A stretch of 64,000 nt of DNA, taken from the NCBI GenBank assembly GCA_030390025.1, contig CM059431.1:131814001-131878000 (forward strand). The letters run 5' to 3'. Below the pieces are notes generated by a model, which searched no databases, was not told the DNA's origin, and worked only from the letters and a program-made list of their open reading frames with translations. The position numbers were made by a program, and so were the translations under genes. The stretch comes from Squalus acanthias. Lineage: Eukaryota. Every line of letters begins with the position of its first letter. Positions within the stretch are counted from its first letter, which is position 1. Shown here in pieces: positions 10,756-55,872 of this stretch.

Positions 10756-10923
10756 AAATAAAAACAGAAAATGCTGGAAATACGCAGAGTCCTGACGAAA
10801 GGTCATCAACCTGAAATGTTAACTCTGTTTCTCTCTCCACAGATGCTGCCTGACCTGCTGAGTATTTCCAGCATTTTCTGTTTTTAGTTCAGATTTCCAA
10901 CATCCACAGTATTTTGTTTTTGT
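10756..10923 (+). mobile_element. Penelope-like mini-element, copy 2, with inverted 5' arm and 14-bp TSD
   Basis: TSD ACCACAGGGAGGTG at 10742-10755 and 10924-10937. Segment 10756-10783 is the reverse complement of 10862-10889 (one mismatch). Confidence 0.85.
10785..10827 (+). ncRNA. Minimal type-I hammerhead ribozyme motif (partly decayed)
   Basis: CAGAGT(C)-CTGACGA-A-AGGT-CATCA-ACCT-GAAA-TGTT-(A)ACTCTG. This gives a stem I pair CAGAGT/ACTCTG, core boxes CUGANGA and GAAA, a 4-bp stem II and a vestigial stem III. Confidence 0.7.
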
Positions 10924-11250
10924 ACCACAGGGAGGTGGCTGTGTCCCAGTGAGAAGAGATGTTAAAGGCCTCTCAAATGAGAGAAAGCTCCTCTGAAGTG
11001 CCTGCTTAAGGCAGATATAATTTTTCCTTCTTCTTTATTTCGACAGCATTAATGTATGAAAGCGCTGGGTATTTTTTTAGCTTTATTGATTTGGAATGTC
11101 CTTGCAGTCTGCACCATTGATCACCTATCAACAATCCTCAGTCACATGATGTTTTAATAAACGATGACAAATTGATGTGTCATCTTCAATAATACATGGT
11201 GATGTACCATGATTTTCTTAGTAAGTGTCGACAATAAGGATTCTCTTGCC

Positions 11251-12716
11251 TAAGAACATAAGAACATAAGAAATAGGAGCAGGAGTAGACCAATCGGCCC
11301 CTCGAGCCTGCTCCGCCATTCAATGAGATCATGGCTGATCTGATCCAACCTCAACTCTAAAGAACACAAGTAGGAGCAGGACCAGGCTACTCGGCCCCTG
11401 GGCCCGCTCCGCCACCCACAGGGCCTTGACCGATCTGAACTCAAACTCATGTCCAATTTCCAGCCCGCTCCCCGTAACCCCGGATTCCCTTTACTTCTAG
11501 GAAACGGTCTATTTCTGTTTTAAATTTATTTAATGAAGTAGCTTCCACAGCTTCCTGGGGTAGCAAATTCCACAGACCCACTACCCTCTGAGTGAAAAAG
11601 TTTCTCCTCATCTCAGTTTTGAAAGAGCAGCCCCTTATTCTAAGATTATGTCCCCTAGTTCTAGTTTCACCCATCATTGGGAACATCCTCACCGCGTCCA
11701 CCCGATCAAGCCCCTTCACAATCTTATATGTTTCAATAAGATCGCCTCTCATTCTTCTGAACTCCAATGAGTAGAGTCCCAATCTACTCAACCTCTCCTC
11801 GTATGTCCACCCCCTCATCCCCGGAATTAACCGAGTGAACCTTCTTTGTACTGCCTCGAGAGCAAGTATGTCTTTTCTTAAGTATGGACACCAAAACTGT
11901 ATGCAGTACTCCAGGTGCGGTCTCACCAATACCCTATACAACTGCAGCAATACCTCCCTGTTTTTATATTCTATCCCCCTAGCAATAAAAGCCAACATTC
12001 CATTGGCTTTCTTGATCACCTGCTGCACCTGCATACTAACTTTTTGATTTTCTTGCACCAAGACCCCCAGATCCCTTTGTACTGCAGTACTTTCCAGTTT
12101 CTCGCCATTAAGATAATAACTTGCTCTCTGATTTTTCCTGCCAAAGTGCATAACCTCACATTTTCCAATATTGTATTGCATCTGCCAAATCTCTGCCCAC
12201 TCACCCAGCCTGTCTATATCCCCTTGTAGGTTTTTATGTCCTCCTCACTCTCTACTTTCCCTCCCATCTTTGTATCATCTGCAAACTTTGATATGTTACA
12301 CTCGGTCCCCTCTTCCAAATCGTTAATATAGATTGTAAAGAGTTGGGGACCCAGCACCGACCCCTGCGGAACACCACTGGCTACTGGTTGCCAGTCCGAG
12401 AATGAACCATTTATCCCAACTCTCTGCTTCCTGTTAGATAACCAATCCTCCACCCATGCCAGAATATTACCCCCAATCCAGTGATTTTTTATCTTGAGTA
12501 ATAATCTTTTATGTGGCACCTTGTCGAATGCCTTCTGGAAGTCTAAATACACTACATCCACTGGTTCCCCTTTATCCACCCTGTACGTTATGTCCTCAAA
12601 GAACTCGAGCAAATTTGTCAGACATGACTTCCCCTTCATAAAGCCATGCTGACTTTGTCCTATTAAATTATGTTTATCTAAATGTTCCGTTACTGTCTCC
12701 TTAATAATAGACTCCT
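11251..12716 (-). mobile_element. 5'-truncated CR1 LINE (RT plus C-terminus, one frameshift)
   Basis: ORFs 12214-12639 ([25 protein letters not shown]) and 11447-12181. The 3' tail is (TTCTTATG)n at 11251-11272. Confidence 0.95.
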
Positions 12717-12989
12717 AGGAGAGAACGCTTTGCTTACAGGCACATGCACAGCTTCCCCAACCCTTGGCAGTTCCAATTGATATATTTAGAAGTGAATGCA
12801 GAAGTGTCTGCACTTTTTAAACATTTAAATCAACTTTAGGTCATTTTTAAAATACGCAGGAGATCCAAGGGCCCCTTGAGCGCTTTTTAAGCCAGGTGTG
12901 ACACTGCACTGGTGTTTTACCCTGTAAGGTGGCGAATTCAAGCCATGTGAAGCTGCACTTTTCCAGTGGAAACTCTTTCACAGCACTAC

Positions 12990-13110
12990 AAACAAAATAA
13001 ACAGCTCGCATTTTTATAGCAGGTTTCCCAACCTCGGGATGTCCCAAAGTGCTTCACAGGTAATGAAATACTTTTGAAGTGTAGTCACTGTTGTAATGTA
13101 GGGAAACGCA
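12990..13110 (-). mobile_element. DeuSINE/L2-type 3' tail fragment
   Basis: Reverse complement of the tail of the SINE at 44262-44680 (CTACATTACAACAGTGAC..AAGCACTTTGGGACATCC). Confidence 0.7.
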
Positions 13111-13414
13111 CCCTTAATGTTGGCAAAGCTGTCAACTAATGCAATTTATGTATCAACGCTGCACTTCAAGTACAAAAAGATTTGGTCAGAGTAACTTCTT
13201 CCATTTTAGAAACCTATGTGTTATTCTTGAAGTTTCTTCTCCACCAATACATTAGGATTACAGTGAGCACTTTGCCAGGAATTGTATACAATGAATACAT
13301 TACTTTGATATTTTTTACTATGCCCATCCATAACCTGTGAAATGTCTTTGTTGACTGGGCAAGAACTGTGAATTTGACCACAAAGAATGTGAAAAATGTA
13401 TAGCCCTCCTCGTA

Positions 13415-14368
13415 CAACAACAGCAACCTACAATGATATAGCACCTTTAACATAGAAAAATGTCCCAAGGCACTTCACGGAGGTGTAATAAATAGAAATG
13501 GACACCGTGCTAAAAGCTTGGTCAAAAAGGTGGGTTTTAAGTAGGGTTTTAAAGTAGGAGTGGGAGGTGGAGACATGGAGAGGTTTAGGAAAGGAATTCT
13601 GGAGCATGGGATCTAGGCTGTTGAAGGCACGACCTCCACTAGTAAGGCAAAGGAAGTCAAGGATACACAAGAGACCAGAGTCAGAGTAACAAGAGTTTGG
13701 CCGGGGAGGTTATAGAGCTGGAGGAGGCTGTAGCGATAGAGAGGGGAAAGACCATCAAGGCATTTAAACATGAACATGAGAATTTTTAATTTGGTGTGCC
13801 GGTGATTGGGAAACAAAGTAGGTCAGTGAAGGCAGGGGTTATAAGCAAGCAGGACCTGATGTGGGATAGGATATGAGCAGCAGAATTTTGGATGAGCTGA
13901 AATTGCGGAGGATGGAGAATGGGAAGCCGGCCAGGAGAGCATTGGAACAGTTGAGACTGGAGGTGGCAAAAACATGGATGAGGTTTTAGATGGAAATGCG
14001 CATGACTATTTTAATTGGGGCCATTAAGTTAAATGCGCACAGCAGAACGTGCTGTTCACATCTTCGGGTTCCCAACCCACTACGCTTCCCGCACGCACGC
14101 AACCTGACTCCAGGTAAAGATTCTGACCGATGTCTTAAGAGGAAGTCTGAGGTCATTTAGGTGCTGTGGCAGTGGTGAAAACCTGATTGGAGAAATTCAA
14201 ACATAGAGTTGCAGGAAAGACAGGCACGGATTTGGGAGGTGACAATACATTCAAGGACTTTGGAGAGGAAAGGGAGATTGGAGATAGCGTGGTAATTTGT
14301 AAAGACTGAGGTGTCAAGGGTGGGTTTATTGAGGAGAGGGCAGCTGATGAAGGTGGTTTTGAAATGGA
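13415..14368 (-). mobile_element. L2-type LINE 3' portion; resumes at 21330-21800
   Basis: Tail (GTT)n with AAGGTGCTATA. The minus reading KLKILMFMFKCLDGLSP resembles the L2 ORF2 C-terminus. AATGGA is duplicated at 14363-14368 and 21330-21335. Confidence 0.7.
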
Positions 14369-17300
14369 ACGTAACTAGGGCTGTAGATAGGTCGAATAAC
14401 TAGGGCTGTAGATAGGGCTTTAAACTAAAAAAGGGGGGGAGGGGTCAGGTGATGGGAAATTTAGAAATCTAAAGAGAAAGGTCAAGGCAATAGAGCAGTG
14501 TAGCGATTTGGGTAAAAATAAACGTGTGACAGGAAGGGACAGAGGGGTAGAAATTAGGTGGCGCCCCATTTGGGGCGCAAATATCGTCTGGACGCAAATA
14601 TTAGCGCCTGGCGCTAATTATCGGCACTGACTGGAAACTTCACTTTTACCGCCCCGGGAGGTGAGTGGAGCGCTAAAGCAGGCGCTGCACACCTGTCTTA
14701 AGGCGCAAAGGCCAAGGAGTGAGGCGCTAACTCAGCGCGCTGGCGAAGCTCATGTAATGTCAGTCAGCAATGGAACACACACACAATGGCACGGGCCAGT
14801 TCTTAAAGGGGATGGTTAATCTTGCTTTCCATCCACATCCTGTTCATTGCAGCCTTGAATCTCGGCCTGGAGAGACTTGCACATCAAATGTGCTGGAAAG
14901 AACAATGGAGAGTACCAGGCAAAGAGCTCAGAGTGCAGCTCCCACAGTCTCTGCTAAATCGATAGAAGGAATGGCAAATCAAAATGAACCTGCAAAGTGC
15001 TGCTCACTACCCAAAACTCCTTCCCACAACGTTGAATCTCTCCAGATGTCTCTCCCTCTCTCTCTCAGAATGCGTAGTTCAAAAATGCCACCAACAATAA
15101 AAGACAGGAAGAGGCCCCCTTTAAATAGCGCCTCCCCCAGCCCCACAGCGATTGATAGCGTTCCAGTCTTCTGGTCGTTGGATGCGCCAGGCGGTAAGGC
15201 AGGGGGCGCCACTCAATTGAATGACGTCACAATCTGCGCGCGCAGGTGGTCGCAGCGGTAAGTTTTAGCGCCGCCGCACAATCTCAAGTTAAGTTCTCGA
15301 GCGGCGCAAACATCGCTGCGCCCGGGCGTTAGCAGCTTTGCGCCCCATTAGCGCCCTCTTAAGGCGCTAACGGGAGGCGCAACCAACTGAATTTTTCCCC
15401 CAGAGAGTTTAATGGTAGCAGTGCAGCAGAGAATAAGGTCAAAGCAGGGAATAATGGTAAAAATATTTAATTAAAGGCTCTTCATCTGAATGCACAAAGC
15501 ATTCGTAGCAAGATAGACGAACTAGTGGCACAAATAGAGATAAATGGGTTTGATCTAATAGCCATAACAGAGACGTGGTTGCAAGCTGGCCAAGGTTGGG
15601 AACTAAATGTTCCAGGGTACTTGACGTTTCGAAAAGACAGGAAGAATGGAAAAGGAGGGGGAGTAACCATGATAATAAAGGATGACATAAGGACAGTAGC
15701 GAGAAAGGATCTCGGCTCGGAAGTTCAGGAAGTCGAATCAGTATGGGTAGAGATAAGGAATAATAAGGGGCAAAAAACACTGGTAGGAGTAGCTATACCG
15801 TTGGACGAAATATTAATCAAGAAGTAGTAGGAGCGTGCAACAAAGGTAATGCAATAATCTTGGGGGACTTTAATCTTCATATAGACTGGACAAATCAAAT
15901 TGGCAAAGGTAGTCTGGAGGACGAGTTCATGGAATGCATTTGGGACAGTTTCCTAGAACAATATGTCATGGAACCAACAAGGGAACAGGCTATTTTAGAT
16001 CTTGTATTGTGTAATGAGACAGGGTTAATTAGCAATCTCATAGTAAAGGATCCTCTGGGGCAGAGTGATCATAATATGATAGAATTTCACGTTCATTTTG
16101 AGAGTGACTTGCCTAAGTCCGAAACTAGAGTCTTAAACTTAAATAAAGCCAATTACATAGGTATGAGGGGCGAGTTGGCTAAGGCAGATTGGAAAAATAG
16201 ATTAAAAGGTATGGCGGTAGATAAGCAGTGGCTAACATTTAAAGAAATATTTCATAATCCTCAACAAAAATACATTCCATTGAGAAACAAAAACTCCATG
16301 GGAAAAGTGATCCGACCATGGCTAACTAAAGAAGTTAAGGATAGCATTAGATTGAAAGAAGAAGCTTATAATGTTGCAAAGAATAATAGTAAGCCTGAGG
16401 ATTGGGAGAGTTTCAGAAACCAGCAAAGGTTGAGCAAAAAATTGATACAAAGGGGAAAAAATAGAATGAGAGAAAACTAGCAAGAAACATAAAAGCAGAT
16501 TGTAAGAGTTTCTACATGTATGTAAAAAGGAAAAGAGTAGCAAAAGTAAACGTTGGTCCCTTAGAGACTGAGACAGGAGAAATTATTATGGGGAATAAGG
16601 AAATGGCAGAAATGTTAAACAAATATTTTGTATCTGTCTTCACAGTAGAAGACACAAAAAGCATACCAAAAATGGTGGGGAACCAAGGGTCTCATAAGGA
16701 TGAGGAACTTAACGTAATTAATATAAGTAGAGAAAAAGTACTAGAGAAACTAATGGGACTAAAAGCCGACAAATCCCCTGGACCTGACGGCCTACACCCT
16801 ATTGTTCTAAAAGAGGTGGTTGAAGAGATAGTGGATACATTGGTTTTGATCTTCCAAAATTCCCTAGATACTGGAGAGGTCCCAGCTGATTGGAAGGTCG
16901 CAAATGTAACAGCGCTATTCAAGAAAGGAGGGAGAAAAAAAACATGGAACTACAGGCCAGTTAGCCTGACATCAGTCGTCGGGAAGATGCTGGAATCCAT
17001 TGTTAAGGAAGTGGTATCAAGTCACTTAGAAAATCATAACATGATTAGGCAGAGTCAACATGGTTTTATAAAAGGGAAATCGTGTTTAAAAATTTATTAG
17101 AGTATTTTGAGGATGTAACCAGCAGGGTAGATAAAGGGGAACCAGTGGATGCAGTATATTTGGATTTCCAAAAGGCATTTGATAAGGTTCCACATAAAAG
17201 GTTATGACACAAGATTAGGGCTCATGGGGTTGGGGGTAATATAATAGTATGGATAGAGGATTGGTTAACAGACAGAAAACAGAGAGTAGGGATAAACGGA

Positions 17301-18350
17301 TCTTTTTCAGGTTGGCAGGCTGTAACTAGTGGGGTGCCGCAAGGATCAGTGTTGGGACCTCAGCTATTTACAATCTATATTAATGACCTAGATGAAGGGA
17401 CCGAGTGTAATTTATCCAAGTTTGCTGCTCATACAAAGCTAGGTGGGACAGTAAGCTGTGAGGAGAACACAAAGAGTCTGCAAAGGGATATAGATAGACT
17501 AAGTGAGTGGGCAGTAAGGTGGCAGATGGAGTATAATGTAGGGAAATGTGAGGTTATTCACTTTGGTACGAAGAATAGAAAAACAGAATATTTTTTAAAT
17601 GGTGAGCAACTTTCAAATGTTGGTGTTCAGAGAGATTTGGGTGTCCTCGTGCAAGAAACACAGAGAGCTAGCATGCAGGTACAACAAGCAATAAGGAAGG
17701 CAAATGGCATGTTGGCCTTTATTGCAAGGGGGTTGGAGTATAAGAGTAAGGAAGTCTTGCTACAATTGAACATGGCCTTGGTGAGACCACACCTGGAGTA
17801 CTGTGCACAGTTTTGGTCTCCTTATCTAAGAAAGGATATACTTGCCTTGGAGGCGGTACAATGAAGGTTCAGTAGATTGATTCCTGGGATGAGAGGGCTG
17901 TCCTATGATGAGAGATTGTGTAGAATGGGCCTATACTCTCTGGAGTTTAGAAGAATGAGATGTGATCTCATTGAAACATACAAGATTCTGAAGGGGATTG
18001 ACAGGGTAGATGCTGAGAGGTTGTTTCCCCTGGCTGGTGTGTCTAGAACTAGGGGGCATAGTCTCAGGATAAGGGGTAGGCCATTTAAGACAGAGATGAG
18101 GAAGAATTTCTTCACTCAGAGGGTTGTGAATCTTTGGAATTCTCTGCCCCAGAGGGCTGTGAATGCTGAGTCTTTGAGTATATTCAAGGCTGAGATAGAT
18201 AGATTTTTGGACTCTAGGGGAATCAAGGGATATGGAGATCGGGTGAGAAAGTGGAGTTGAGATCGATGATCAGACATGATCTTATTGAATGGTGCAGCAG
18301 GCTCAAGGGGCCGTATGGCCTACTCCTGTTCTTATTTCTTATGTTCTTAT
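14369..18350 (+). mobile_element. Near-full-length CR1 LINE (end of ORF1, APE endonuclease, RT), disrupted
   Basis: IAITETWL, GDFNLH and SDHN endonuclease motifs; RT motifs PQGSVLGP (FADD mutated to FAAH); stops and frameshifts; tail TTCTTATGTTCTTA near 18340. Colinear with the copy at 61320-63846. Confidence 0.95.
14544..15401. mobile_element. Harbinger-type MITE (858 bp) inserted in CR1
   Basis: TIR GGGGTAGAAATT / AATTTTTCCCCC and TSD AGA. The empty site GGAAGGGACAGAGAGTTTAATGG is visible in the sister CR1 at about 61415-61437. Confidence 0.9.
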
Positions 18351-18351
18351 T

Positions 18352-18621
18352 AGAATTAGGAGCAGGAGTAGGCCATACAGCCCCTCGAGCCTGCTCCGCC
18401 ATTCAATAAGATCATGGCTGATCTTCGACCTCAACTCCACTTTCGAGCCCAATCTCCATATTCCTTGATTCCCTTAGAGTCAAAAAATCTATCTATCTCA
18501 GCCTTAAATATACTCAATGAATGAGCATCCACTACCCTTTGAGGTAGAGAATTCCAAAGATTCACAACCCTCTGAGTGAAGAAATTTCTCCTCGTCTCAG
18601 TCTTAAATGGTTGACCCCTTA
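18352..18621 (-). mobile_element. CR1 3' end, tail-to-tail with the previous CR1; continues at 21207-21329
   Basis: Reverse complement of 18070-18335. The sequence resumes (TCTTGAGACTATGCCCC) after the nested CR1. Confidence 0.9.
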
Positions 18622-46140: not shown

Positions 46141-46626
46141 GCAGATCTCCAATTTTTATAGTAAGAATGGAATCCTCAAGCTATTGTGCCATTTTTGGCT
46201 GTAAATGGCTGATTACTATAGGTTAGAGAAACAGGATCTCTCTTAAAATCATAGAATAGCTAGCCATTTAGTCCCTTACAGTATGATTAATGACAACAGA
46301 TAATAGCTGTATGTCAATTGATAATAGAATACCCTTCCCTTTCTTTCCTCAATTTTTTTTTAAAGTCTTCCCCTAAGGCTTTCCATTCTTGGTTCAAGGA
46401 GGTAGATATGTAACCCAGATACTACTTAGTAAGTAGCTGCTAGGAGGTGCGTAAGAGTGACCCGAGATAACTGGCCTACTGATATCCCTGTCTTCCCTGC
46501 TTTTACATCCTGCATATCTGTCCAAGTCCCCAGGCACTCTGGAAAAGTAAGTGACTTTTCTAACCTGATTTTTTTTTGTATAAAAGGCTAAGTGTGGACC
46601 GGCATTAGCAGTTTTAAAGGGGCACT

Positions 46627-47720
46627 GGGGCCTAAAATCTGTGGCCGGACTTCTGTGGCCCTTCTGGATGGAACGGCTGGAAATTACACTGGGTAGTCAG
46701 AGATTCTGCAATGCCCTCTTGGGGGCAGAGCCTCTGTATGATCCAAACAAGGATATTGGCTTGGGGGGAGGGGGCGAGGACAAGGATGGGGGGAGCTCCT
46801 TATGCCGTCTAGGCCCAAAGCTCTGGTATTCTCTCCTTAAACCTCTCCCCCTCTCTTTCCTCCCTTAAGATGCCCCTTAAAACTTCTCTCTTTGACCAAT
46901 CTATTCTAATATCTCCTTCTTTGGCTTGTGTCAATTTTTGTCTGATTACAACTTGCATATGTAAAAGGTGCTATATAAATGCAAGTTGTTGTTGCTGAGA
47001 ATTCCTGCTTTCCTGGCCCTCAGAGGAGCTGAAGTGGGGCCCACTTCGAGTTCCAGGTCTGGAATGTGGCCTGGCCCTCTGAAGGAAAATGCTCAATTAT
47101 TTTATGAGGCTCCTTTCTAGCGGGTTGGGGAAACCTGGAGCCAAACACGTGTAGTACGGCACTCCTCTGCCGGACCTTCCAGTTCCTCTAACACGACGAG
47201 CAGCTTATATGCGCCCTTAGTGGTTTGGGCACCTCATTCAATGCAAAACAGGGACCTCCACCTGGCCCTACAAACTTTGGCAGGGTCGGCAGTACAGGTC
47301 TCCGGCAGTCACAACTCAAAACCTATGCTGGGATGCAGCCTAACCCCCAACCCCAAGTATTTTCAGAGTCCACTGCAGTCTAAATTGAAGCGGGTAAGTT
47401 TTTTTTAAACTTGGCTTAACACTAGGGCCGATGTTGGCTTGCACTTGCCCCCCTCTATATTACCTCTCCCACCCAAACCCCCCAGCAAACCCCTCTCTCC
47501 TGGACTCATCCGAGTTCCTCAGCCGGCTTCCAAGCCGGACGAAATTCAAAGGGCCCAGACCGGCGAGCTGCATTGGAGCACCCAATATGGCATCCGCAAT
47601 TTTGATGATGAGGCCCAAGGACAAAGTTAAAATGGTCCTCGGGCCTTTCCATTCTGACACGCTTTGGCTGTGCACCTCACAGATCACACCTGGATTCAGG
47701 CGCGAATGAATTTAGGCCCC
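46627..47720. mobile_element. Harbinger-type MITE containing an L2 tail fragment (~46809-46994)
   Basis: TIR GGGGCCTAAAATC / GAATTTAGGCCCC (12/13) and TSD ACT (46624-46626, 47721-47723). Confidence 0.85.
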
Positions 47721-48437
47721 ACTGTGTTTAGACCTAGAGAGAGAGAGCAGCAGAATTTGTGCGCACCATTTTCAACACAATGCCAGCACAGACTGCATCT
47801 GGGTGTTTGCCAAACTTTGTGCAATAAGCGTTGTGCTTCTTTAATATACATGTGGGATTTCTTATATTTCCCCAATTAAGTTGACTTCAGCCTGTCTGTA
47901 GCATCAGCATGAAAGGTAATTGTTGTTTTATCTTTTATTTTGGTGCCCATTAAGTACTATCCTTGGACACTAATGATTGATCAGATGACATTATGAAAAT
48001 GATGCCACTTTCAGCTGTATGACAGCCTTACTTTCACCCAACATTCATTGCTTTGTTTTCTGGATGATCTCTCACCACAAATAGTTAGGGCAAAAATCCT
48101 GAGGTAGATTTTCATCTTTGTTGCCTGGGCGGTTTTTGTATGAGAGAGAGAATAGTAATGCTACTATTTATGCTGGAAAGAATCACCTTAGGGAAGCTCA
48201 CTGACAAACTCAGATGTGCAGATTTTTTTTCAACAATTTGATTTTAAATCATTGAAGCAATTGTTTTCTCTGCAGAAGCCACATTGCTTCAAGGCAGTGG
48301 CTCATGTATATAGGGGAAGAATATTGTTTGTGTTCTGGCAATATTATCAGAATTTTTGTAAGCTACAGTTGTCATTGCTGCATTTCCAAGCCATTAGTTT
48401 TCACACTGAAGCCTCTATCCTTGACAATTATTTCAGG

Positions 48438-48543
48438 AACGTTAACTGTTTCTCTCCACAGATGATGCCTGACCTGCTGAGTCTTTCCAGCATTTTCTGT
48501 TTTTATTTCAGATTTCCAGCATCCACAGTATTTTACTTTTGTC
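48438..48543 (+). mobile_element. Penelope-like mini-element, copy 3 (starts at AACGTTAAC, hammerhead core absent)
   Basis: Sequence identity with the other copies. Confidence 0.8.
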
Positions 48544-49084
48544 TTTGAAAGAGCAGGTGTGCTTAGTCCCACATCCTCGCTTTTTGTCCGTAACCCTGTA
48601 AGTTGCTCATCCTCAATACCTGTCTAACTCCCTTTAAAAATTATTTATGGAATCCGCTTCCACCACCTTTTCAGGAAAAACATTCCAGATCCAGACAACT
48701 CAGTGAAAACATTTCTCCTCATTTCCCCTTTAGATATTTCTCCAATGATTTTAAATCTATGACCTCTGGTTATTGACCCACTCACCAGAGGGAATAGTTT
48801 TTCTCTATCTGCTCTATCAAAACCTCTTATCATCTTGAAACCTCTATTAGGTCACCTCTTAACCTTTTCTGTTCCAAGGAGAACTGCCCTAATTTTTCCA
48901 ACCTCTCCTCATAACTGATGCCCTCATCCCTGGTAACATCCTGGTAAACCTCCTCTGCACCCTTTCTAAAGCCTTTACATCTTTCCTGAAGTGTGGTGCC
49001 CAGAATTGTCCACAATACTCCAGCTGAGGACTAACCAGTGATTCATAAAGTTCTAGCATGATCTCTTTGCTTTTATATTCTATA

Positions 49085-49537
49085 GGGCTGGATTTTGAAT
49101 GACCCATGGAGTCGGGTTTGGAGGCGTGTGGGGGGTTAAATTTGCGGGGTCGGGGTTTCCGACCCCATCCCGACTCCATCCCGCCTCCACGCAATTTTGA
49201 CATAATCAGTCGCGGGGTTCCCGATTCCGTCCCGCCTCCAAGAGGCGGGAGAGGCCATTAAAGCCCTTAACAAGCTCTAAATTGGCTCTGTAATGCGATT
49301 TTGAAACGCTGTAGCTAGTTTAACCCTCTTCTGACGTGAAGCATGCCTGGTGTGAAACACTGCAGTGAAACCTGGCGGGAGCAGAAGTGGATAGCTGACT
49401 TTCGGCTGCAAGTGCACTATTACAACGGAGATGTGATGAAGGTGGTAGTGGTGCTAGTAGTAGGTCTGAACATTGCCTCTGATGCTGCTGCATTGAATGT
49501 CTTAAGAGACTGCCTGGGAGGACTTACTTGGCAAAAA

Positions 49538-49583
<46 letters not shown>

Positions 49584-49905
49584 GTCTCTCTGTCTCTCTG
49601 TCTCTCTGTCTCTCTCTCTCTCTTCCCCCCCCCCCATTTCTGCATCCAGGTCCACTCACATCATAAGCCAGGCAACCCCTCTCTCACCAACAGTCTCTGA
49701 GACTAGGCAGTCAGTACTGATGACATCATCAGAGGCGGGTTTCAGACTGAAAACACGAATTAGTTCATGGGTTCCCACATGCTCCAATTTAATTGCCCAA
49801 TTAAGTGAAAATTGCATCAGGCACCCACATTAATCTGGAGTCGGGGGGGAAACACGAAATGCGGATTACACGACTCCAACCCGACCCCAAGACAAAATCC
49901 AGCCC
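49085..49905. mobile_element. Harbinger-type MITE with an internal (CT)n microsatellite (49541-49623)
   Basis: Perfect 13-bp TIR GGGCTGGATTTTG / CAAAATCCAGCCC; flanks ATA/ATG. Confidence 0.9.
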
Positions 49906-49982
49906 ATGTCTCTAATTGTAAACCCAATAAACCCATATGCTTTTTTAACCACCTTATCAACTTGCCCTGCCATCTTTAAGGA

Positions 49983-51420
49983 TTTTAAAAAAGGAGGGAG
50001 GGAGAAAGCAGGGAATTATAGACCGGTCAGCCTGACATCGGTCGTGGGTAAAATGATGGAAGCAATTATTAAAGATGTCATAACAGACCATTTGGAAAGT
50101 GGCGACATGATAGGTCCAAGTCAGCATGGATTTGTGAAAGGGAAATCATGCTTGACAAATCTTCTGGAATTTTTTGAGGATGTTTCCAATAGGGTGGACA
50201 GGGGGGAACCAGTAGATGTGGTGTATTTGGACTTTCAGAAGGCCTTCGACAAGGTCCCACACAAGAGATTGGTGAGCAAAGTTAAAGCACATGGGATTGG
50301 GGGTAATGTGTTGACGTGGATTGAGAACTGGTTGGCACACAGGAAACAAAGAGTAGGAGTAAATGGGTACTTTTCAGAATGGCAGGCAGTGACCAGCGGG
50401 GTACCGCAGGGTTCGGTGCTGGGACCCCAGCTGTTTACATTATATATTAATGATTTGGACGAAGGGATTAAATGTAATATCTCCAAATTTGTGGATGACA
50501 CTAAATTGGGAGGCAGTGTGAACAATGAGGAGGATGCTATGAGGCTACAGAGTGACTTGGACAGGTTGGGTGAATGGGCAAATGTATGGCAGATGAAGTA
50601 CAATGTGGATAAATGTGAGGTTATCCACTTTGGTGGTAAAAATAGAGAGGCGGACTATTACCTGAATGGTGGCAGATTAGGGAAAGGGGACGTGCAACGA
50701 GACCTGGGCGTCATGGTACATCAGTCACTGAAGGTGGGAATGCAAGTGCAGCAGGCAGTCAAGAAAGCAAACGGAATGATGGCCTTCATAGCAAGGGGAT
50801 TTGAGTACAGGAGTAGGGAGGTGATGCTACAGTTGTACAGGGCCTTGGTGAGGCCACACCTGGAGTATTGTGCGCAGTTTTGGTCTCCTAACTTAAGGAA
50901 GGACATTCTTGCTATTGAGGGAGTGCAGCGAAGGTTCACTAGATTGATTCCTGGGATGGCCGGACTGACATATCAAGAAAGATTGGGTCAACTGAACTTG
51001 TATCCTCTGGAGTTCAGAAGAATGAGGGGGGATCTTATAGAGACATTTAAAATCCTGACTGGTTTAGACAAATTAGATGCGGGCAGAATGTTCCCAATGG
51101 TAGGGAAAACTAGAACCAGGGGTCACAGTCTAAGGATTAAGGGGAAGCCATTTAGGACTGAGCTGAGGAGGAACTTCTTCACCCAGAGAGTGGTGAATCT
51201 ATGGAATTCTCTTCCACAGAAGGTTGTTGAGGCCAGTTCGCTAAATATATTCAAAAGGGAGTTAGATATAACACTCACAACTAAGGGGATCAAGGGGTAT
51301 GGCGAGAAAGCAGGAATGGGGTACTGAGGTAGCATGTTCAGCCATGAACGCATTGAATGGCGGTGCAGGCTCGAAGGACCGAATGGTCTACTCCTGTACC
51401 TATTTTCTATGTTTCTATGT
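49983..51420 (+). mobile_element. Young 5'-truncated CR1 LINE with an open RT frame to 51327
   Basis: No stops from FKKGGREK through RT (FVDD) to the C-terminus; tail TTTCTATGTTTCTATG. Confidence 0.95.
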
Positions 51421-51560
51421 CTATGACACCAAGGTCTCTCTGCTCATCTACACTTTTTAAAATTGTACCATTTATAGTATACTGTCTTTCCAGATTAGTC
51501 CTCCCAAAGTGCATCACTTCACATTTCTCCACATTGAACTCCTTCTGCCATGCTTCTGCC

Positions 51561-53105
51561 CAGTAATGCCAACCCCACCATCTCATAAATCATGAGACAA
51601 ACTCTTAAAAATCCTGAGATTTGGTAAGAAATCATGAGTTGTTATTTTTTGGTTTATAAACCTCATTAGTGGCTTTATTTAATCTCTAACAGGTCACAGC
51701 TCTTTACAAAACCTATATTACTGCATCTGAAATAACAACAGAAAACGCTGGAAAAACTCAGCAGGCCAGGCAGCATCCGTGGAGAGAGAAAGAGAGTTAA
51801 CGTTTCAGGTCGATGACCTTTCATCATTCTGATGAAAGGTCATCAACCTGAAATGTTAACTCTCTTTCTCTCTCCACGGATGCTGCCTGGCCTGCTGAGT
51901 TTTTCAAGCGTTTTCTGTTGTTATTTCGGATTTCCAGCATCCGCAGTATTTTACTATCGTATTACTGCATCTGAAAATGTTTTACAAAAGACTTTTAAAA
52001 AATCATACCATTATCACCACCCTTCACTTGGTGCCCAACACAAACACCATGCAAGGCAGTCCCTGCAGCTGCCAACCAAAGGTAAGTTTTGGGGAAAAAA
52101 TTCAAAAACACCTTTCCATGGAGACAGGAGTTGCAGTCACTCCCAGTGAACATCGATGTGTTTGGTGATGTGAACACTTCTTTCTTACTATCTCTTGCCC
52201 TCAGTGTCGATTCCTCTCTTTCTCTTCCCTTCTCTTCACAGCTTTCTGGGCCTCCCACGCAGCTTTTCAATGGGAAAAAACACATGTGCGCTATGTGGGG
52301 CTGCGCACCCAAAAAAAATTAATGGGAACATTGCCCCCATCTCTCTCATTCCTCTCTCTGTACCCCATCTCTCTCTCCTATTTGTCTCTCTCTACCTCCA
52401 TCTCTCTCCCAGTCACTCTTCCACATCTCTCTCTCTCTCTCTCTCTCTCTCTACTCCCATCACTCCCTTGCCTCTCTATACCTCCATCTCTCTCTCTTCC
52501 ATTCACTCTTTGTACCCCCATCTCTCTCCCTATCATTCATCCCCATCACTCTCTCTGTACCTCCATCTCTCTGCCTATTTCTCCCATCTCTCTCTCCCTT
52601 CACAACCATCAAACAATCAAAGGGACACTGATTCCTGCTTGACTTAGCACTCAGAGACTGATCTCACTCTTATTAGCCTCTACAACTACTACAGAGCTAG
52701 TTTAAGAGAAAGCATGAAAAACAGCAACCGCGTAATCCTGGCCACAATGTTATCACATATTTGTGCACAGTACCTTCACAACACACATAGTTCGACCCTG
52801 GGCAAGGAGAAACGCAGCTTCACAAAATGGCTGTGGCACTGCCTTTCTTGCTCTTCCATTGGCTGCTTCATGTCACTTCACTTTGTGATTGACAGCAGAG
52901 GGAACCAATCAAGGGATCTTACAGCTGATTGGCCTGACTAAACCCACATGTCCCAGAGCAGCCAATCACCAGGACGCATAATGAAGATTAATAGAGTGGG
53001 GGAAAAAATCATGACTTTTCACAGTTAAACCGCGTGATCATGAGTTAGGTCAATTTTCATTAAAAATCACATGTCTCGCGATTAATTCACAAGAGTGCAT
53101 TACTG
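51561..53105. mobile_element. Non-autonomous DNA transposon with hAT-like termini and a 6-bp TSD
   Basis: Perfect 9-bp TIR CAGTAATGC / GCATTACTG; flanks TCTGCC / CCTGCC; interrupts CR1 ORF2. Confidence 0.8.
51733..51960 (+). mobile_element. Penelope-like mini-element, copy 4: ~95-bp-arm palindrome with 16-bp TSD
   Basis: TSD ATTACTGCATCTGAAA at 51717-51732 and 51961-51976. Symmetry centre TTC at 51827-51829. Hammerhead core CTGATGA..GAAA at 51829-51853. Confidence 0.9.
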
Positions 53106-54893
53106 CCTGCCCATTTCACTATCTTGTCTATGTCATCCTGATATCTACAACTATCCTCATCACTATCTACTACTTTGCCAAGTTTTGTATCATCTGCAAA
53201 CTTTATAATGCTACTCCCTACATCAGAGTCTGGTCATTTATAAAAATTGAAAAGAGTAATGGAACCATACCCAGTCTGAAAAACATGACCACCCTGTCAC
53301 TGAGCCAATTCTGTATCCATACCGCCACTTTCCCCTTAATTCCATGGGCTTTCATGTTCTTAACAAGCCTACATGTTGAATGTCTTCCAAAAGTCCCTAT
53401 ATACACAACATCTCCTGCACTACCTTGATCAACTTTCTCTGTTACCTCATCAAAGAATTCAATCAAGTCAGTCAGACACGATTTGCCTTTAACAAATCCA
53501 TGCTGGCTCTCCTTGATTAACCCATGTCTTTCGAAATGAATGTTTATTTTGCCCCTGATAATGGTTTCCAGTAACTTCCCCACCACCGATGTTAGGCTGA
53601 CTTGGCCTATTGTTTCCTGCTTTATCCCTCTCCCCTTTCTTGAATAGTGTTATAACATTAGCAGTCCTCCGGCACTACTCCTGAGTCCAATGAGGATTGA
53701 ACGATTGTGACCAATGCCTCTGCTACTTATACCTTTGCTTCTTTCAGCAACCTAGGATGCATTCCATCTTGACCAGGTGACTTCCCAACTTTCAGTAATG
53801 CTAATCTTATAGCCAGGAAGTGGGGCAGATTTTGGTCAATATTGCACCTGAAACCTCCATATTTTAGACAAATGTAAATTTAAGGGCTGAAAACAGGTTC
53901 TCTGACTTTGAAATAAATGGGATGGTGACCCCAGGCAGATTTTAATCAGGGTGTGGAGTGCCATTTGATCAGCAGCAGCTGTGAGACTAGAATTGGTGAC
54001 CATCCGAGTATTGAGCCATCAGCCACCAGGTTACATTCTCATTAATGGTCATTATAAGTGAAATTGGAGAGATTGGGTATTGTGGATGTTCACTCCTACT
54101 GTGTTATCAATGTTGGTGATTGAAGTGATCCTGTATTTTCTTCATATATTTTATCTAATTCAAATTTAAACATCTCTCTAAAAACCTGGGAATTATAAAG
54201 GTTATATTTCATTTAAAAACAAATAGCATTGATGCCAGCTATGTTACGTGAAGTCAATAATCTTATCAAAGCTGATGTTCACCTGCAGCTTACTCAGTTT
54301 TATAAATACAAGCTATTCCTTTCTGTCACTGTTTCTAATATTGAAAATGCTTCGAGGTGGGAAATAATTGGACCTCAATCTCCTTAAACATGACCTTTTG
54401 ACAACCATTAATTTCATGTGGGTTTTGCTATATAGACTATTCACACAGCAGAATGAGCCCCTCCAAGCACATTCCAGGTATTATAATGAAAGAAATCAGA
54501 GAGGAAGTGAGCCTTGTCAGTTGTAGCCTGTTACGGATGTGATGGTGTCAGAGCACCAGCAGTCATATTGCAAGCAGCTGTTCAAGTTGTCAAGATGAGT
54601 CATTTTTGCTTCATAATTTCATAGGGAGTCAACATATACCAGATCGTTGTATTAGATTTCAAGGTGCTGCTCTCTCATTCAATCTGTTGCAGAAAGAGAA
54701 ATTCGACAAGGTTTTGTAGCAATGACTTCTCTGAATGTTTAAAAAATGAGCAGTGATGGGCAGAGATACATAAGTTTTTTTTAAATGTACATTTTTAATT
54801 AACTTTGTGCTCATCCAAGCGAAGGATGTTAGCGATGGGGAACATCAAATGTTCTTGCATTCTTAAAAAGCCTCATGTTAGCCTAACGTGTTA

Positions 54894-55010
54894 CTGATGA
54901 TAGGTCAGCGACCTGAAATGTTAACTTTGTTTCTCTCTCCACAGCTGCTGCCTGACCAGCATTTTCTGCTTTTATTTCAGATTTCCAGCATCTGCAGTAT
55001 TTTGCTTTTG
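54894..55010 (+). mobile_element. Penelope-like mini-element, copy 5, beginning at the hammerhead core
   Basis: CTGATGA-T-AGGTC-AGC-GACCT-GAAA-TGTTAAC followed by the family body with a small deletion. Confidence 0.8.
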
Positions 55011-55740
55011 AGTTACAATTACACTCTGTCAGATTTGTGAATACCTTAGTTTTAAGCTTTATACTCAAAAGAAGACATTTCAAGAGCCAGCATTTGCAAG
55101 GAAACTTTGGAAAGCCAAAGAACTCTATAAATAAATGTGAAATATAGAATCATAGAAAGTTACGGCACAGAAGGAGGCCGTTCGACCCATTGTGTCTGCG
55201 CCGGTCGAAAAAAAGCTATCCAGCCTAATCCCACTTTCCAGCTCTTGGTTTGTAGCCTTGCAGGTTACGGCACTTCAAGTGCATATCCAAGTACTTTTTA
55301 AATGTGATGAGGGTTTCTGCCTCTACCACCCTGTTCAGGCAGTGCGTTTCAGACCCCCACCGCCATCTGGGTGAAAACATTTCTCAACTCCCCTCTAATT
55401 CTTCTACCAATTACTTTAAATCTATGCCCCCTGGTTATTGATCTCTCCCCTAAAGGAAATAGGTGCTTTCTATCCACTCTTTCTAGGCCCCTCATAATTT
55501 TATACACCTCAATTAAATTTCTCCTCAGCCTCCTCTGTTCCAAAGAAAACAATCCCAGCCTATCCAATCTTTCCCCATAGCTAAAATTCTCCAGTCCTGG
55601 CAACATCTTTCCTGTAATGTGGTGACCAGAACTGTAAGCAGTGCTCTAGCTGTGGCCTAACTAGTATTTTATACAGTTCTAGCATAACCTCACTGCTCTT
55701 ATATTCTGTCCCTCGGCTAATAAAGGAAAGTATCCCGTAT

Positions 55741-55776
55741 CTGACGAAAGGTCTTCGACCTGAAACGTTAACTCTG
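55741..55776 (+). ncRNA. Minimal hammerhead ribozyme core (5' strand of stem I missing)
   Basis: CTGACGA-A-AGGTC-TTC-GACCT-GAAAC-GTT-AACTCTG, with a 5-bp stem II and a palindromic AACGTT stem III. Confidence 0.75.
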
Positions 55777-55872
55777 TTTCTCTCTCCACGGATGCTGCCT
55801 GGCCTGCTGAGTTTTTCCAGCGTTTTCTGTTGTTATTTCGGATTTCCAGCATCCGCAGTATTTTGCTATCGT
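55741..55872 (+). mobile_element. Penelope-like mini-element, copy 6, with 14-bp TSD
   Basis: TSD AAAGTATCCCGTAT at 55727-55740 and 55873-55886, inside CR1; CpGs intact, suggesting a young copy. Confidence 0.9.

What the first reader, a model, noticed from the sequence alone, without database searches (positions are those of the whole stretch)
10756..55872. Family of short Penelope-like insertions carrying a minimal hammerhead ribozyme
Seen: six related non-coding elements (4372, 10756, 48438, 51733, 54894, 55741). Four contain CTGA(C/T)GA + one extra base + AGGT(C)-loop-(G)ACCT + GAAA + (C/T)GTT. The stem II loop varies (TTC, ATC, AGC) while the stem is largely kept. Three copies have exact 14-16 bp TSDs, and three have an inverted 5' arm. 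Known: CUGANGA/GAAA/NUH is the hammerhead catalytic core. Penelope-like elements carry minimal type-I hammerheads with a palindromic vestigial stem III that act as dimers, and they insert with inverted partial pLTRs. Inference: these are either truncated pLTRs of an autonomous Penelope or a non-autonomous ribozyme-bearing retroelement (retrozyme-like) amplified in this shark. Predicted cleavage is after GUU (e.g. 55769).
Basis: partly seen in the sequence, partly recalled or inferred. Interest (0 to 1): 0.8.

Follow-up and report, generated by a model that had tools for sequence, protein, structure and literature searches.

The report
Truncated Penelope copies bearing hammerhead motif
The six short repeats are broken-off end pieces of a very abundant Penelope-like jumping gene of this shark-like genome, and four of them carry the small hammerhead ribozyme motif already described for such elements, which is predicted but not shown to cut RNA; the catch is correct but the kind is known.

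Summary
The window has six related non-coding elements. Four carry CTGAYGA-A-AGGTC-loop-GACCT-GAAA-YGTT, three have exact target-site duplications (14, 17 and 14 bp) and three have an inverted 5' arm.

Long copies elsewhere in the genome continue upstream into a reverse transcriptase + C-terminal GIY-YIG ORF. One copy (L149) has an open 971-aa ORF between two motifs 3,199 bp apart, and its ATG is A6-U7-G8 of the ribozyme core. The window elements are therefore 5'-truncated or inverted-arm insertions of an autonomous Penelope-like element (PLE), not a retrozyme-like family.

Known PLE hallmarks are all present:
- two alternative 3' ends about 36 nt apart (the "tail");
- a tail on only one arm of inverted pairs;
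- variable-length duplications;
- a minimal type-I hammerhead with an unpaired base after A9 and a palindromic helix III.

A second, divergent PLE family in the same genome keeps the same fold with different stems.

Insertion 5' ends pile up at -4..0, at the ribozyme's 5' edge: 7,761 of 29,606 core-bearing copies genome-wide. They do not pile up at the predicted cut site (at most 1 of 90 sampled). Self-cleavage is untested.

This scan had already found the same element on other DNA of this genome. Known kind, low novelty.

The parts
4376..4451 (-). Copy 1, inverted 5' arm (element positions about +14..+89, counting C of CTGAYGA as 0). No hammerhead core; old copy.
4452..4517 (+). Copy 1, direct arm (about +50..+115). 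No hammerhead core.
10742..10755 (.). Copy 2, left target-site duplication ACCACAGGGAGGTG (right copy at 10924-10937).
   Evidence: read
10756..10787 (-). Copy 2, inverted 5' arm. It ends at the short 3' terminus (about +98), so it has no tail.
10788..10923 (+). Copy 2, direct arm from -4 to about +132 (with tail). Hammerhead motif at 10792-10824, decayed (AGTC for AGTT, CAACC, AATGTT). Predicted cut 10820|10821.
48438..48545 (+). Copy 3, 5'-truncated at about +23/+25 (starts CGTTAAC). Lacks the catalytic core; has the tail.
51716..51732 (.). Copy 4, left target-site duplication TATTACTGCATCTGAAA, 17 bp (right copy at 51960-51976).
   Evidence: read
51733..51826 (-). Copy 4, inverted arm (+96 down to +1, no tail). 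It holds a reverse-complement copy of the motif.
51827..51959 (+). Copy 4, direct arm (-2..+131, with tail). Motif at 51829-51861, predicted cut 51857|51858. With the inverted arm it forms a near-perfect hairpin of about 100 bp (-185.8 kcal/mol).
54894..55015 (+). Copy 5, old copy (about 77% identical) with an internal deletion. Motif CTGATGA-T-AGGTC-AGC-GACCT-GAAA-TGTT at 54894-54926, predicted cut 54922|54923.
55727..55740 (.). Copy 6, left target-site duplication AAAGTATCCCGTAT (right copy at 55873-55886).
   Evidence: read
55741..55872 (+). Copy 6, young copy (95.7% identical to a genomic reference copy) running from position 0 to +131.
55741..55773 (+). Copy 6, minimal hammerhead motif: core 55741-55747, unpaired A 55748, helix II 55749-53/55757-61, GAAA 55762-65, CGTT 55766-69, helix I 3' strand AACT 55770-73. 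Predicted cut 55769|55770. The helix I 5' strand is absent because the insertion starts at the core.
   Evidence: numbering by the standard hammerhead scheme as given in PMC4209133
55838..55872 (+). Copy 6, the "tail": the roughly 35 nt between the two alternative 3' termini of the family.
   Evidence: PMC11167929

Best explanation
The six window elements are 5'-truncated or inverted-arm insertions of the 3'-terminal 100-230 nt of an autonomous Penelope-like retrotransposon, and four of them include its minimal type-I hammerhead motif, which is predicted (not shown) to cleave after GUU/GUC.

Shown here:
- The full element is about 3.2 kb per unit: pLTR, then the hammerhead, then the ORF.
- The ORF (RT followed by GIY-YIG) starts inside the ribozyme core (ATG = A6-U7-G8 in one subfamily).
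- Copies end at one of two sites, about +94..98 or +129..135.
- In head-to-head pairs, one arm carries the extra roughly 36 nt (the tail) and the other does not.
- Insertion 5' ends are concentrated at -4..0.

Inferred by analogy with the Anolis element PAc (PMC11167929):
- The element's protein nicks both DNA strands.
- It starts reverse transcription internally on its RNA at two neighbouring sites. This would give the two 3' ends and the inverted arms.

My own inference:
- The -4..0 pile-up marks a discrete 5' end of the template RNA, most likely a transcription start.
- Many mini-copies would then be run-off cDNAs from the internal start site nearest the RNA's 5' end, rather than random truncations.
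- Ribozyme-cut RNA is rarely, if ever, the template.
For: Identity as a PLE:
- Upstream of the motif, long copies encode YIDD-type RT and GIY-YIG. GIY-YIG PF01541 scores 23.4 and 22.7 bits against a cut-off of 22.6. RVT_1 has E = 3e-6.
- L149 has an open 971-aa ORF at 590-3505, with motifs at 587 and 3786.
- The genome gives 65,316 first-look RT candidates, with open frames up to 1,015 aa.
- There are 361 homologues at E <= 1e-10; the 120 listed carry precomputed PF00078 and, in a minority (about 27), PF01541. The best named one is from the shark Chiloscyllium punctatum, 72% identical.

Abundance: 23,631 exact 32-mers and 19,474 exact 39-mers, with 0 in the reversed controls.

PLE insertion signatures in an unbiased 90-copy sample:
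- 3' ends fall at +90..104 in 55 copies, at +128..137 in 32, and elsewhere in 3.
- In 10 of 10 head-to-head pairs with both arms sampled, one arm has the tail and the other lacks it. The three window pairs behave the same way.

Hammerhead motif:
- It has helix I AGUU/AACU, an unpaired A after A9, a 5-bp helix II, a palindromic CG and a GUU/GUC triplet.
- Among 28 long copies, the only common polymorphisms inside the 37-nt motif are at N7 (0.46), loop II (0.32) and H17 U/C (0.29). These are exactly the free positions.
- A second PLE family (763 exact copies; EN-like ORF 31-40% identical in 3 of 12 loci) keeps the fold, with 7 of 11 pairs changed on both sides and 98.7% of cells paired. Slid controls give 11-53%.

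5' ends:
- 17 of 90 sampled copies start at -7..0, against 2 at -19..-8, 22 over -399..-20, and 1 at +27..31.
- Genome-wide, homology stops at -4, -3, -2, -1 or 0 in 1,599, 2,085, 1,519, 1,480 and 1,078 copies, against 21,845 that run on. That is 7,761 of 29,606.
- Duplications abut these starts directly.
Against: - No Rfam hammerhead model matches, even at E <= 10 on 161 nt.
- Pfam scores on the intact ORF are below the curated cut-offs: RVT_1 24.5 < 29.6 and GIY-YIG 21.1 < 22.6. There is no PDB relative.
- In family 1 the 10.1-11.1 pair is A-U, not the G-C that PMC4209133 calls highly conserved. Helix II has 5 bp, not the 7-8 of the S. mansoni families described there.
- Folding energies disfavour the active form. 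The double-hammerhead scores -9.7 kcal/mol against a dimer minimum of -22.9, and the monomer minimum pairs UGAYG with CGUUA.
- Within family 1 there is no stem covariation, because the copies are young. Family 2 was found with a structure descriptor, so its pairing is partly guaranteed by the search.
- The transcription-start reading rests on sequence motifs that I recall, not on a call (Inr-like CCAGTTC, TTAAAT about 25-30 nt upstream). No RNA ends could be read because all the runs are contigs.
- The starts spread over 5 nt rather than one.
- Point mutations in long copies add roughly 200 per site. This estimate comes from 2 mutated sites in about 45 long copies.
- The full-length copy L149 has pLTR sequence upstream of its first motif. 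A start at -4 therefore cannot be the only template 5' end, and a second cluster of 5' ends lies near -100..-121.
Confidence: 0.9

Rival explanations
1. The short elements are a separate non-autonomous, ribozyme-bearing retroelement (a non-LTR retrozyme or SINE-like family) that is amplified through its own RNA, possibly as tandem or circular forms, and only borrows the Penelope enzymes.
For: - Mini-copies of about 100-137 nt with a fixed 5' edge are very numerous: 7,761 of 29,606 core-bearing copies start at -4..0.
- One internally deleted 364-bp derivative exists (L055).
- A 2026 preprint (10.64898/2026.07.22.740005; abstract and two passages read) reports retrozymes in its one chondrichthyan genome, with a mean consensus length of 363 bp, and derives them from PLE pLTRs.
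Against: - The short copies are collinear with the end of the autonomous element and have no sequence of their own.
- They lack the pLTR upstream of -4, so they would lack the predicted promoter.
- Among the 100 listed places, only one same-strand pair lies under 1 kb apart (482 bp; not inspected). Other same-strand spacings are 1.1-3.3 kb.
- The L055 deletion junction has only 4 exact copies in the genome, against 19,474 for the standard 39-mer.
Confidence: 0.04
2. The motif is conserved in Penelope-like elements for a reason other than RNA self-cleavage. It could, for example, be a folding or binding platform for the element's protein at the ORF start, or a translation-start structure. Cleavage would then play no part in copying.
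For: - At most 1 of 90 sampled insertions starts at +27..31.
- The active fold is energetically disfavoured.
- The 10.1-11.1 pair is A-U.
- The motif overlaps the start codon.
- PMC11167929 (main text read) reports that core mutants did not change insertion in vitro, that cleavage needed the protein, and that no RNA-seq reads ended at the cut site.
- PMC4209133 reports low activity in vitro.
- PMC8557442 (passages) notes that PLE clades without the motif proliferate well.
Against: - The positions that vary among source lineages are just those free in an active hammerhead, including H17 U/C.
- All invariant core bases are kept in two families whose stems differ.
- PMC11167929 did see C3/G8-dependent cleavage with compensatory rescue.
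- Fungal PLE hammerheads are fast monomers (PMC4209133).
Confidence: 0.3
3. The elements are ordinary LINE/SINE tails with twin-priming inversions, and the hammerhead-like string is a chance resemblance.
For: - Variable duplications, 5' truncation and inverted 5' parts also occur with LINEs.
- No curated hammerhead model matches.
Against: - The linked ORF carries GIY-YIG C-terminal to RT. There is no poly(A) or simple-repeat tail.
- There are two fixed 3' ends, with the tail on one arm only.
- A strict min-hammerhead descriptor hit 2 loci in 244 kb and 0 in each of 20 shuffles.
- A second PLE family carries the same fold at the same place.
Confidence: 0.02

Closest known systems
Minimal hammerheads (min-HHR) in the pLTRs of metazoan Penelope-like elements (Cervera & De la Pena 2014, PMC4209133; parts 1-2 of the text read)
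   Same: - Type-I motif in the repeat that flanks an RT-GIY-YIG ORF.
- Helix I of 4 bp.
- Unpaired base between A9 and 10.1.
- No real helix III, only a palindromic 15.2-16.2 dinucleotide.
- Thousands of mostly solitary copies.
- Pairs on opposite strands 100-700 bp apart.
   Different: - Family 1 has A-U instead of G-C at 10.1-11.1, and a 5-bp helix II.
- Sequence variability is low because the family is young.
- Sharks are not named in the parts of that paper I read.
PAc, the Poseidon-type PLE of Anolis carolinensis (Frangieh et al. 2024, PMC11167929; main text read)
   Same: - The ribozyme overlaps the start of the ORF.
- Insertion 3' ends lie about 100-135 nt into the ORF at two neighbouring sites. 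The interval between them is the optional 30-40-bp tail.
- Both strands are used, giving inverted structures.
- There is no sign that cut RNA is the template.
   Different: - In PAc, C3 and G8 lie before the start codon and reverse transcription starts 111-118 nt into the ORF.
- Here the ATG is A6-U7-G8 (one subfamily), and the ends lie about 91-95 and 126-132 nt after the A of the ATG.
- Biochemistry exists only for PAc.
- The shark ORF has a CX4CX2C motif between RT and EN, a feature that PMC8557442 assigns to the Neptune/Nematis clades. The clade was not determined here.
Penelope of Drosophila virilis (Schostak et al. 2008, PMC2377424, passages; Cervera 2014)
   Same: - An internal promoter in the pLTR is proposed in both.
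- In D. virilis an intron ends at the 5' edge of helix I, 121 nt after the transcription start.
- The shark element has a splice-acceptor-like tract (TTTTTTCCAG) ending at -3, and a second cluster of 5' ends near -100..-121.
   Different: No RNA data here. Neither a transcription start nor splicing is shown for the shark element.
Non-LTR retrozymes of animals (Cervera & De la Pena 2020, PMC7229834, search listing only; Li et al. 2026 preprint, abstract and passages)
   Same: Hammerhead-bearing, non-coding, derived from or related to PLE pLTRs.
   Different: - Retrozymes form head-to-tail arrays and give circular RNAs.
- The window elements are solitary, truncated, flanked by duplications, and not arrayed.

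Membership tests
Penelope-like elements (EN+ PLE) | Single ORF with a reverse transcriptase domain | tested here: met
   YIDD-type RT. RVT_1 has E = 3e-6 and 2.5e-5 but scores below Pfam's cut-off. Most of the 120 listed homologues carry precomputed PF00078 (361 hits at E <= 1e-10 in all).
Penelope-like elements (EN+ PLE) | GIY-YIG endonuclease C-terminal to the RT in the same ORF | tested here: met
   PF01541 scores 23.4 and 22.7 bits (cut-off 22.6) in two copies and 21.1 bits in the intact ORF at residues 873-910 of 971.
Penelope-like elements (EN+ PLE) | Pseudo-LTRs from partial tandem arrangement | tested here: met
   L149 has motifs at 587 and 3786 flanking the ORF, with pLTR sequence of at least 453 nt upstream of the first motif.
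Penelope-like elements (EN+ PLE) | Frequent 5' truncation with an adjacent inverted 5'-truncated copy | tested here: met
   3 of the 6 window copies, and many head-to-head pairs.
Penelope-like elements (EN+ PLE) | Optional 30-40-bp tail, often at one end only | tested here: met
   3' ends at +90..104 (55 of 90) or +128..137 (32 of 90). In 10 of 10 sampled pairs the tail is on one arm only.
Penelope-like elements (EN+ PLE) | RT phylogenetically with PLEs / sister to telomerase RTs | not tested
   No reference PLE sequences were on hand. The homologues carry no PLE name.
min-HHR of PLEs (type-I hammerhead) | Catalytic core CUGANGA ... GAAA and an NUH cleavage triplet | tested here: met
   H17 is U or C.
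min-HHR of PLEs (type-I hammerhead) | Unpaired nucleotide between A9 and 10.1 | tested here: met
   An A in both families.
min-HHR of PLEs (type-I hammerhead) | G10.1-C11.1 pair | tested here: not met
   A-U in family 1, G-C in family 2.
min-HHR of PLEs (type-I hammerhead) | Palindromic 15.2-16.2 (helix III only in a dimer) | tested here: met
   CG in family 1, GC in family 2.
min-HHR of PLEs (type-I hammerhead) | Helix I of 4-5 bp formed with the sequence 5' of the core | tested here: met
   AGUU/AACU in long copies. Not met in any of the four window copies.
min-HHR of PLEs (type-I hammerhead) | Self-cleavage dependent on the core | not testable with these tools
   Only thermodynamic folds were computed. 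They disfavour the active fold.
Rfam hammerhead families | Match to a curated covariance model | tested here: not met
   No hit at gathering score in the window, and none at E <= 10 in 51600-56000 or L013:1440-1600.
Non-LTR retrozymes | Head-to-tail arrays of short non-coding hammerhead units | tested here: not met
   No arrays in the window or in 244 kb around it. One uninspected 482-bp same-strand pair among 100 places. The deletion-derivative junction has 4 copies.
Non-LTR retrozymes | Circular RNA of unit length | not testable with these tools
   Only assembled contigs of public runs were available.

The most novel reading that the evidence does not exclude
The roughly 100-137-bp mini-insertions are not random truncations. 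They are complete run-off cDNAs of the leader of the element's own mRNA.

On this reading, transcription starts about 4 nt before the ribozyme core. The element's enzyme starts reverse transcription internally at +94..98 or +129..135, using the copy of that site nearest the RNA's 5' end. Every translated mRNA can therefore spawn SINE-like mini-copies.

The leader is present at both ends of a more-than-unit RNA. It could therefore also act like a retroviral R region and let the cDNA jump, which would build the pseudo-LTR.
Probability: 0.35. Interest if true: 0.45.

Novelty: new member of a known kind. Interest (0 to 1): 0.25.

Why it matters
The element itself belongs to a class described in 2014.

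Its modest value lies elsewhere. It is a very young, very abundant vertebrate PLE family: tens of thousands of near-identical copies, including copies with open reading frames. In such a family the footprints of the unusual PLE insertion mechanism can be counted at single-base resolution:
- two internal start sites for reverse transcription;
- a tail on one arm only;
- a sharp 5'-end class at the ribozyme's edge and none at its cut site.

These counts agree with the in vitro picture from the Anolis element. They also give a testable lead on where PLE template RNAs begin.

Tried and rejected
- **Rfam.** No hit at gathering score on the whole window. At E <= 10 on 51600-56000 and on L013:1440-1600 there was no hammerhead hit. 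The only hits were sub-threshold miRNA-like matches to the 51733-51959 palindrome, which I read as an effect of the perfect hairpin.
- **DNA search of the own genome.** A search with 55741-55872 returned nothing because its words are too common there. I used exact patterns instead.
- **Public sequencing runs.** All 24 are kept as assembled contigs. Laying four of them on L013:1050-1600 shows the element in those data, with summed depth rising from the pLTR to the +0..+100 part. It cannot show RNA starts, ends, strand or expression, and two of the runs are only guessed to be RNA. I draw no conclusion on transcription or cleavage from this.
- **PDB sequence search** with the intact ORF found nothing.
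- **Pfam** on the intact ORF gave only sub-threshold RVT_1 and GIY-YIG.
- **First alignment of the two ribozyme families (A1).** MAFFT misplaced a gap. I re-aligned trimmed stretches (A2).
- **Cut RNA as the template.** I considered that the -4..0 class could come from ribozyme cleavage in another register, or from the splice-acceptor-like CAG at -3. I found no helix III partner for a cut there. No upstream exon sequence sits between the duplications and the element. I therefore prefer a template 5' end.
- **Clade assignment** (Poseidon versus Neptune) was not attempted beyond noting the CX4CX2C motif.

Full report
**Observation.** I read all six places and compared 55741-55872 with the whole window. 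There are exactly six related loci:
- 4376-4517
- 10755-10923
- 48438-48542
- 51725-51960
- 54894-55006
- 55741-55872

Four of them hold CTGA(C/T)GA, one extra base, AGGTC, a 3-nt loop, (G/A)ACCT, GAAA and (C/T)GTT, starting at 10792, 51829, 54894 and 55741. The target-site duplications are exact: 10742-10755/10924-10937 (14 bp), 51716-51732/51960-51976 (17 bp) and 55727-55740/55873-55886 (14 bp). Inverted 5' arms lie at 4376-4451, 10756-10787 and 51733-51826.

The window is 43.5% G+C and has no N. The genome it comes from is 3.7 Gb in 3,882 contigs, and the window is C7:131814001-131878000.

**Abundance.**
- The 32-nt motif with five degenerate positions occurs 23,631 times exactly in the genome, against 0 for the reversed control.
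- A 39-mer from +50..+88 occurs 19,474 times, also with 0 in the control.
- A plain DNA search returned nothing because the words are too common.

**What the long copies show.** From here on I count the C of CTGAYGA as position 0.

In 21 of the first 30 motif-anchored loci, homology continues upstream as ...TTCC(C)AGTT|CTGAYGA. The AGTT at -4..-1 can pair with AACT at +29..+32, just after the predicted cut. Further upstream lie a YIDD-type RT frame and a frame with the GIY-YIG motif:
- PF01541 scores 23.4 and 22.7 bits against a cut-off of 22.6.
- RVT_1 has E = 3e-6, below its cut-off.

A protein search of the genome gave 65,316 first-look candidates. 74 were scored, with open frames up to 1,015 aa.

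One of these places, L149 (C1:11179400-11183800), has:
- two identical motifs at 587 and 3786, 3,199 bp apart;
- between them, an open 971-aa frame from an ATG at 590.

That ATG is A6-U7-G8 of the ribozyme core. The frame runs through the whole terminal piece seen in the window and on into the N-terminal region, the RT and the GIY-YIG domain. On this intact frame Pfam gives RVT_1 at 24.5 bits and GIY-YIG at 21.1 bits, both just under their cut-offs, and the PDB holds no relative.

A search of 5.8 billion proteins gave 361 relatives at E <= 1e-10, of which the best 120 are listed. Most of those listed have precomputed PF00078, and about 27 of the 120 have PF01541. The best named one is an uncharacterised protein of the shark Chiloscyllium punctatum (72% identical). 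Corals, sea urchins and molluscs follow at about 50%.

In the subfamily with CTGACGA, the first in-frame ATG is at +51 (read).

RT followed by GIY-YIG in one frame, flanked by direct repeats, is the architecture that PMC4209133 and PMC8557442 give for EN+ Penelope-like elements. I did not make a phylogeny.

**Insertion anatomy.** I took the first 90 genomic places of the 39-mer as a sample that is unbiased for anything upstream of +50. Six of the 90 are segmental duplicates of two loci, and several are the two arms of one insertion.

The 3' ends are bimodal:

| 3' end position | copies (of 90) |
|---|---|
| +90..104 | 55 |
| +128..137 | 32 |
| elsewhere | 3 |

One of the three "elsewhere" copies runs on into the ORF.

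In all 10 head-to-head pairs with both arms in the sample, one arm ends at the far site and the other at the near site. The pairs are L072/073, 074/075, 077/078, 111/112, 113/114, 115/116, 124/125, 127/128, 136/137 and 139/140. The three window pairs do the same.

This is the 30-40-bp "tail" that PMC8557442 (passages) describes as often present at one end only. PMC11167929 (main text) explains it for the Anolis element PAc as the stretch between two internal start sites of reverse transcription. That paper also finds that both DNA strands are cut and extended. The duplications I read range from 7 to 17 bp.

**5' ends.** In the same sample:

| 5' end position | copies (of 90) |
|---|---|
| beyond -400 (edge of the sampled stretch) | 29 |
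| -399..-20 | 22 |
| -19..-8 | 2 |
| -7..0 | 17 |
| +1..+20 | 15 |
| +21..+26 | 0 |
| +27..+31 | 1 |
| +32..+60 | 4 |

Many of the +1..+20 ends are junctions of inverted arms inside helix II.

I then counted the whole genome with six exact patterns on a 27-nt core:

| homology stops at | copies |
|---|---|
| runs on through -5 | 21,845 |
| -4 | 1,599 |
| -3 | 2,085 |
| -2 | 1,519 |
| -1 | 1,480 |
| 0 | 1,078 |

So 7,761 of 29,606 copies (26%) begin within five bases of the core. Point mutations in long copies should add only about 200 per site. This is my estimate from 2 mutated sites in about 45 long copies. About a quarter of true starts will also look one base longer by chance.

In single copies the duplications abut these starts directly (for example L061, L093, L106, L108, L120, L123, L133 and L138, and 55741 in the window). 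No foreign or exon sequence intervenes. By contrast, the predicted ribozyme cut (+28|+29) is not a preferred start.

A smaller cluster of ends or junctions lies near -100..-121, at CTCTTAATGTCTC.

**The ribozyme motif.** Family 1 reads AGUU-CUGAYGA-A-AGGUC-NUC-GACCU-GAAA-CG-U-(U/C)|AACU. It matches the min-hammerhead of PMC4209133 in four respects:
- a 4-bp helix I;
- an unpaired base between A9 and 10.1;
- no helix III, only a palindromic dinucleotide;
- an NUH triplet.

It departs in having A-U at 10.1-11.1 and a 5-bp helix II.

Among 28 long copies that were not selected on the motif, the only common polymorphisms in the 37 nt are at N7 (minor fraction 0.46), the first loop-II base (0.32) and H17, U or C (0.29). 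All other positions are at or below 0.07. These three changes are non-synonymous or remove the ATG, so coding constraint does not explain the pattern.

There is no stem covariation within the family, which is young.

A strict descriptor run over 244 kb (the window plus its flanks) found two loci, and none in each of 20 shuffles. One is family 1. The other (L036, minus strand) reads UUAC-CUGAAGA-A-GGGGC-AGAAUA-GCUCC-GAAA-GC-UU|GUAA. This second family has:
- 763 exact copies, with 0 in the control;
- the same head-to-head pairs and the same tail;
- in 3 of 12 loci, an upstream frame 31-40% identical to the family-1 endonuclease region.

On a structural alignment of five family-1 and three family-2 copies, 98.7% of cells pair and 7 of 11 pairs differ on both sides. 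Slid controls pair at 11-53%. Two caveats apply: this is in effect one comparison of two lineages, and family 2 was found by a descriptor that demands pairing. What is independent is that a divergent PLE carries a descriptor match at the homologous place.

**Why the activity is only predicted.**
- No Rfam model matches.
- The monomer's minimum-energy fold pairs UGAYG with CGUUA (-9.1 and -7.3 kcal/mol for the two subfamilies).
- The double-hammerhead fold is possible at -9.7 kcal/mol, against a dimer minimum of -22.9 or -19.3.
- The literature agrees. PMC4209133 reports low activity in vitro and only as dimers. PMC11167929 reports cleavage only with the protein, no effect of core mutants on insertion, and no reads ending at the cut site.
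- All four window copies lack an intact helix I, and three have CpG decay in the motif.

**Mechanism, with what is shown and what is inferred.**

Shown: the architecture, the two 3' termini, the one-armed tail, the 5'-end class at -4..0, and the absence of a class at +29.

Inferred by analogy with PAc: the protein nicks both strands and starts cDNA internally at two sites.

My own inference: the -4..0 class marks a discrete 5' end of the template RNA. I favour a transcription start for these reasons:
- the upstream edge is sharp;
- the sequence is CCAGTTC, with TTAAAT 24-29 nt before the A at -4;
- I recall these as initiator-like and TATA-like motifs, but no call tested that.

If this is right, many mini-copies are run-off products from the start site nearest the RNA's 5' end.

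Against a single start at -4:
- the full-length copy L149 has pLTR sequence upstream of its first motif;
- a second cluster of 5' ends lies near -100..-121;
- in D. virilis the start lies 121 nt before the intron end that abuts helix I (PMC2377424 passages; PMC4209133), and the shark element has an acceptor-like TTTTTTCCAG ending at -3.

The public runs could not decide this, because all are kept as contigs.

**The retrozyme alternative.**
- The short copies have no sequence of their own and are not arrayed.
- One 364-bp internally deleted derivative (L055 = L149 707-860 joined to 3674-3883) has just 4 exact copies of its junction in the genome.
- A 2026 preprint derives vertebrate retrozymes from PLE pLTRs and reports them in its one chondrichthyan genome (abstract and two passages read).

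**Novelty.** PLEs are reported in all vertebrate lineages, including elephant shark (PMC4350176, passages). Hammerheads are reported in all PLE sequences examined (PMC4209133; PMC6155905, passages). My searches found no paper that names this shark family or the 5'-end class, but they cover only the held library. Earlier notes of this scan had already recognised the same element, with paired hammerheads, elsewhere in this genome and judged it a known kind. My independent copy L149 agrees. I file it as a new member of a known kind, with low interest.

Noticed in passing
L036:1418-1457 (minus strand; C7, about 68 kb before the window): A second, divergent Penelope-like family with its own minimal hammerhead: UUAC-CUGAAGA-A-GGGGC-AGAAUA-GCUCC-GAAA-GC-UU|GUAA. 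It has 763 exact copies in the genome, head-to-head pairs, a tail of about 36-40 nt, and an EN-like frame upstream (31-40% identical to family 1).
   Followed up: partly
L055:1187-1549 (C1:845172-845534): Internally deleted 364-bp derivative of the element: the ORF start region joined to the last 112 nt of the pLTR plus the hammerhead. Its junction has only 4 exact copies, on four contigs.
   Followed up: yes
window 51733-51959: The inverted-arm insertion forms a near-perfect hairpin of about 100 bp (-185.8 kcal/mol). It draws sub-threshold matches to several miRNA precursor models (MIR8643 70 bits against 135 needed). If transcribed, it could feed small-RNA pathways.
   Followed up: no
window 4376-55872 and flanks L033-L050: All six window copies have their direct arm on the + strand. 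The four copies in the 100 kb before the window are on the - strand. This could be chance or an orientation bias relative to a host gene.
   Followed up: no
window 55600-55740 and 55873-56000: The 55741 copy sits inside another abundant repeat (...GGCTAATAAAGGAAAGTATCCCGTAT | GACTTCTTAACCACC...). The same repeat flanks unrelated loci (L055, L138, L154).
   Followed up: no
L149:540-586 and long copies: Just upstream of the core there is a polypyrimidine tract ending in CAG at -3 (splice-acceptor-like) and a TTAAAT box about 25-30 nt before -4. A second cluster of insertion 5' ends lies near -100..-121.
   Followed up: partly
L028, L029, L030 (C1:6987189-7054093): Three copies about 95% identical over 2.6-3 kb, two of them 1,678 bp apart. 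Unrelated sequence follows the element exactly at its short 3' end (+98). Earlier notes of this scan describe a Tx1-type element that targets this tail; I did not check whether this is one.
   Followed up: no
L031:2010-2894 and 58-1933: Next to a unit-length copy there is a tandem repeat with a long open frame of GDTAGHTHWKETPRDTL-like units, and on the minus strand frames that look like the endonuclease and RT of a LINE (my reading of the translations; no domain search was run).
   Followed up: no
L098 (C1:8248155-8248993): An inverted arm made of ORF sequence from beyond the tail is joined to a direct arm that starts at +39. Some inverted arms therefore begin downstream of the usual start sites.
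   Followed up: no
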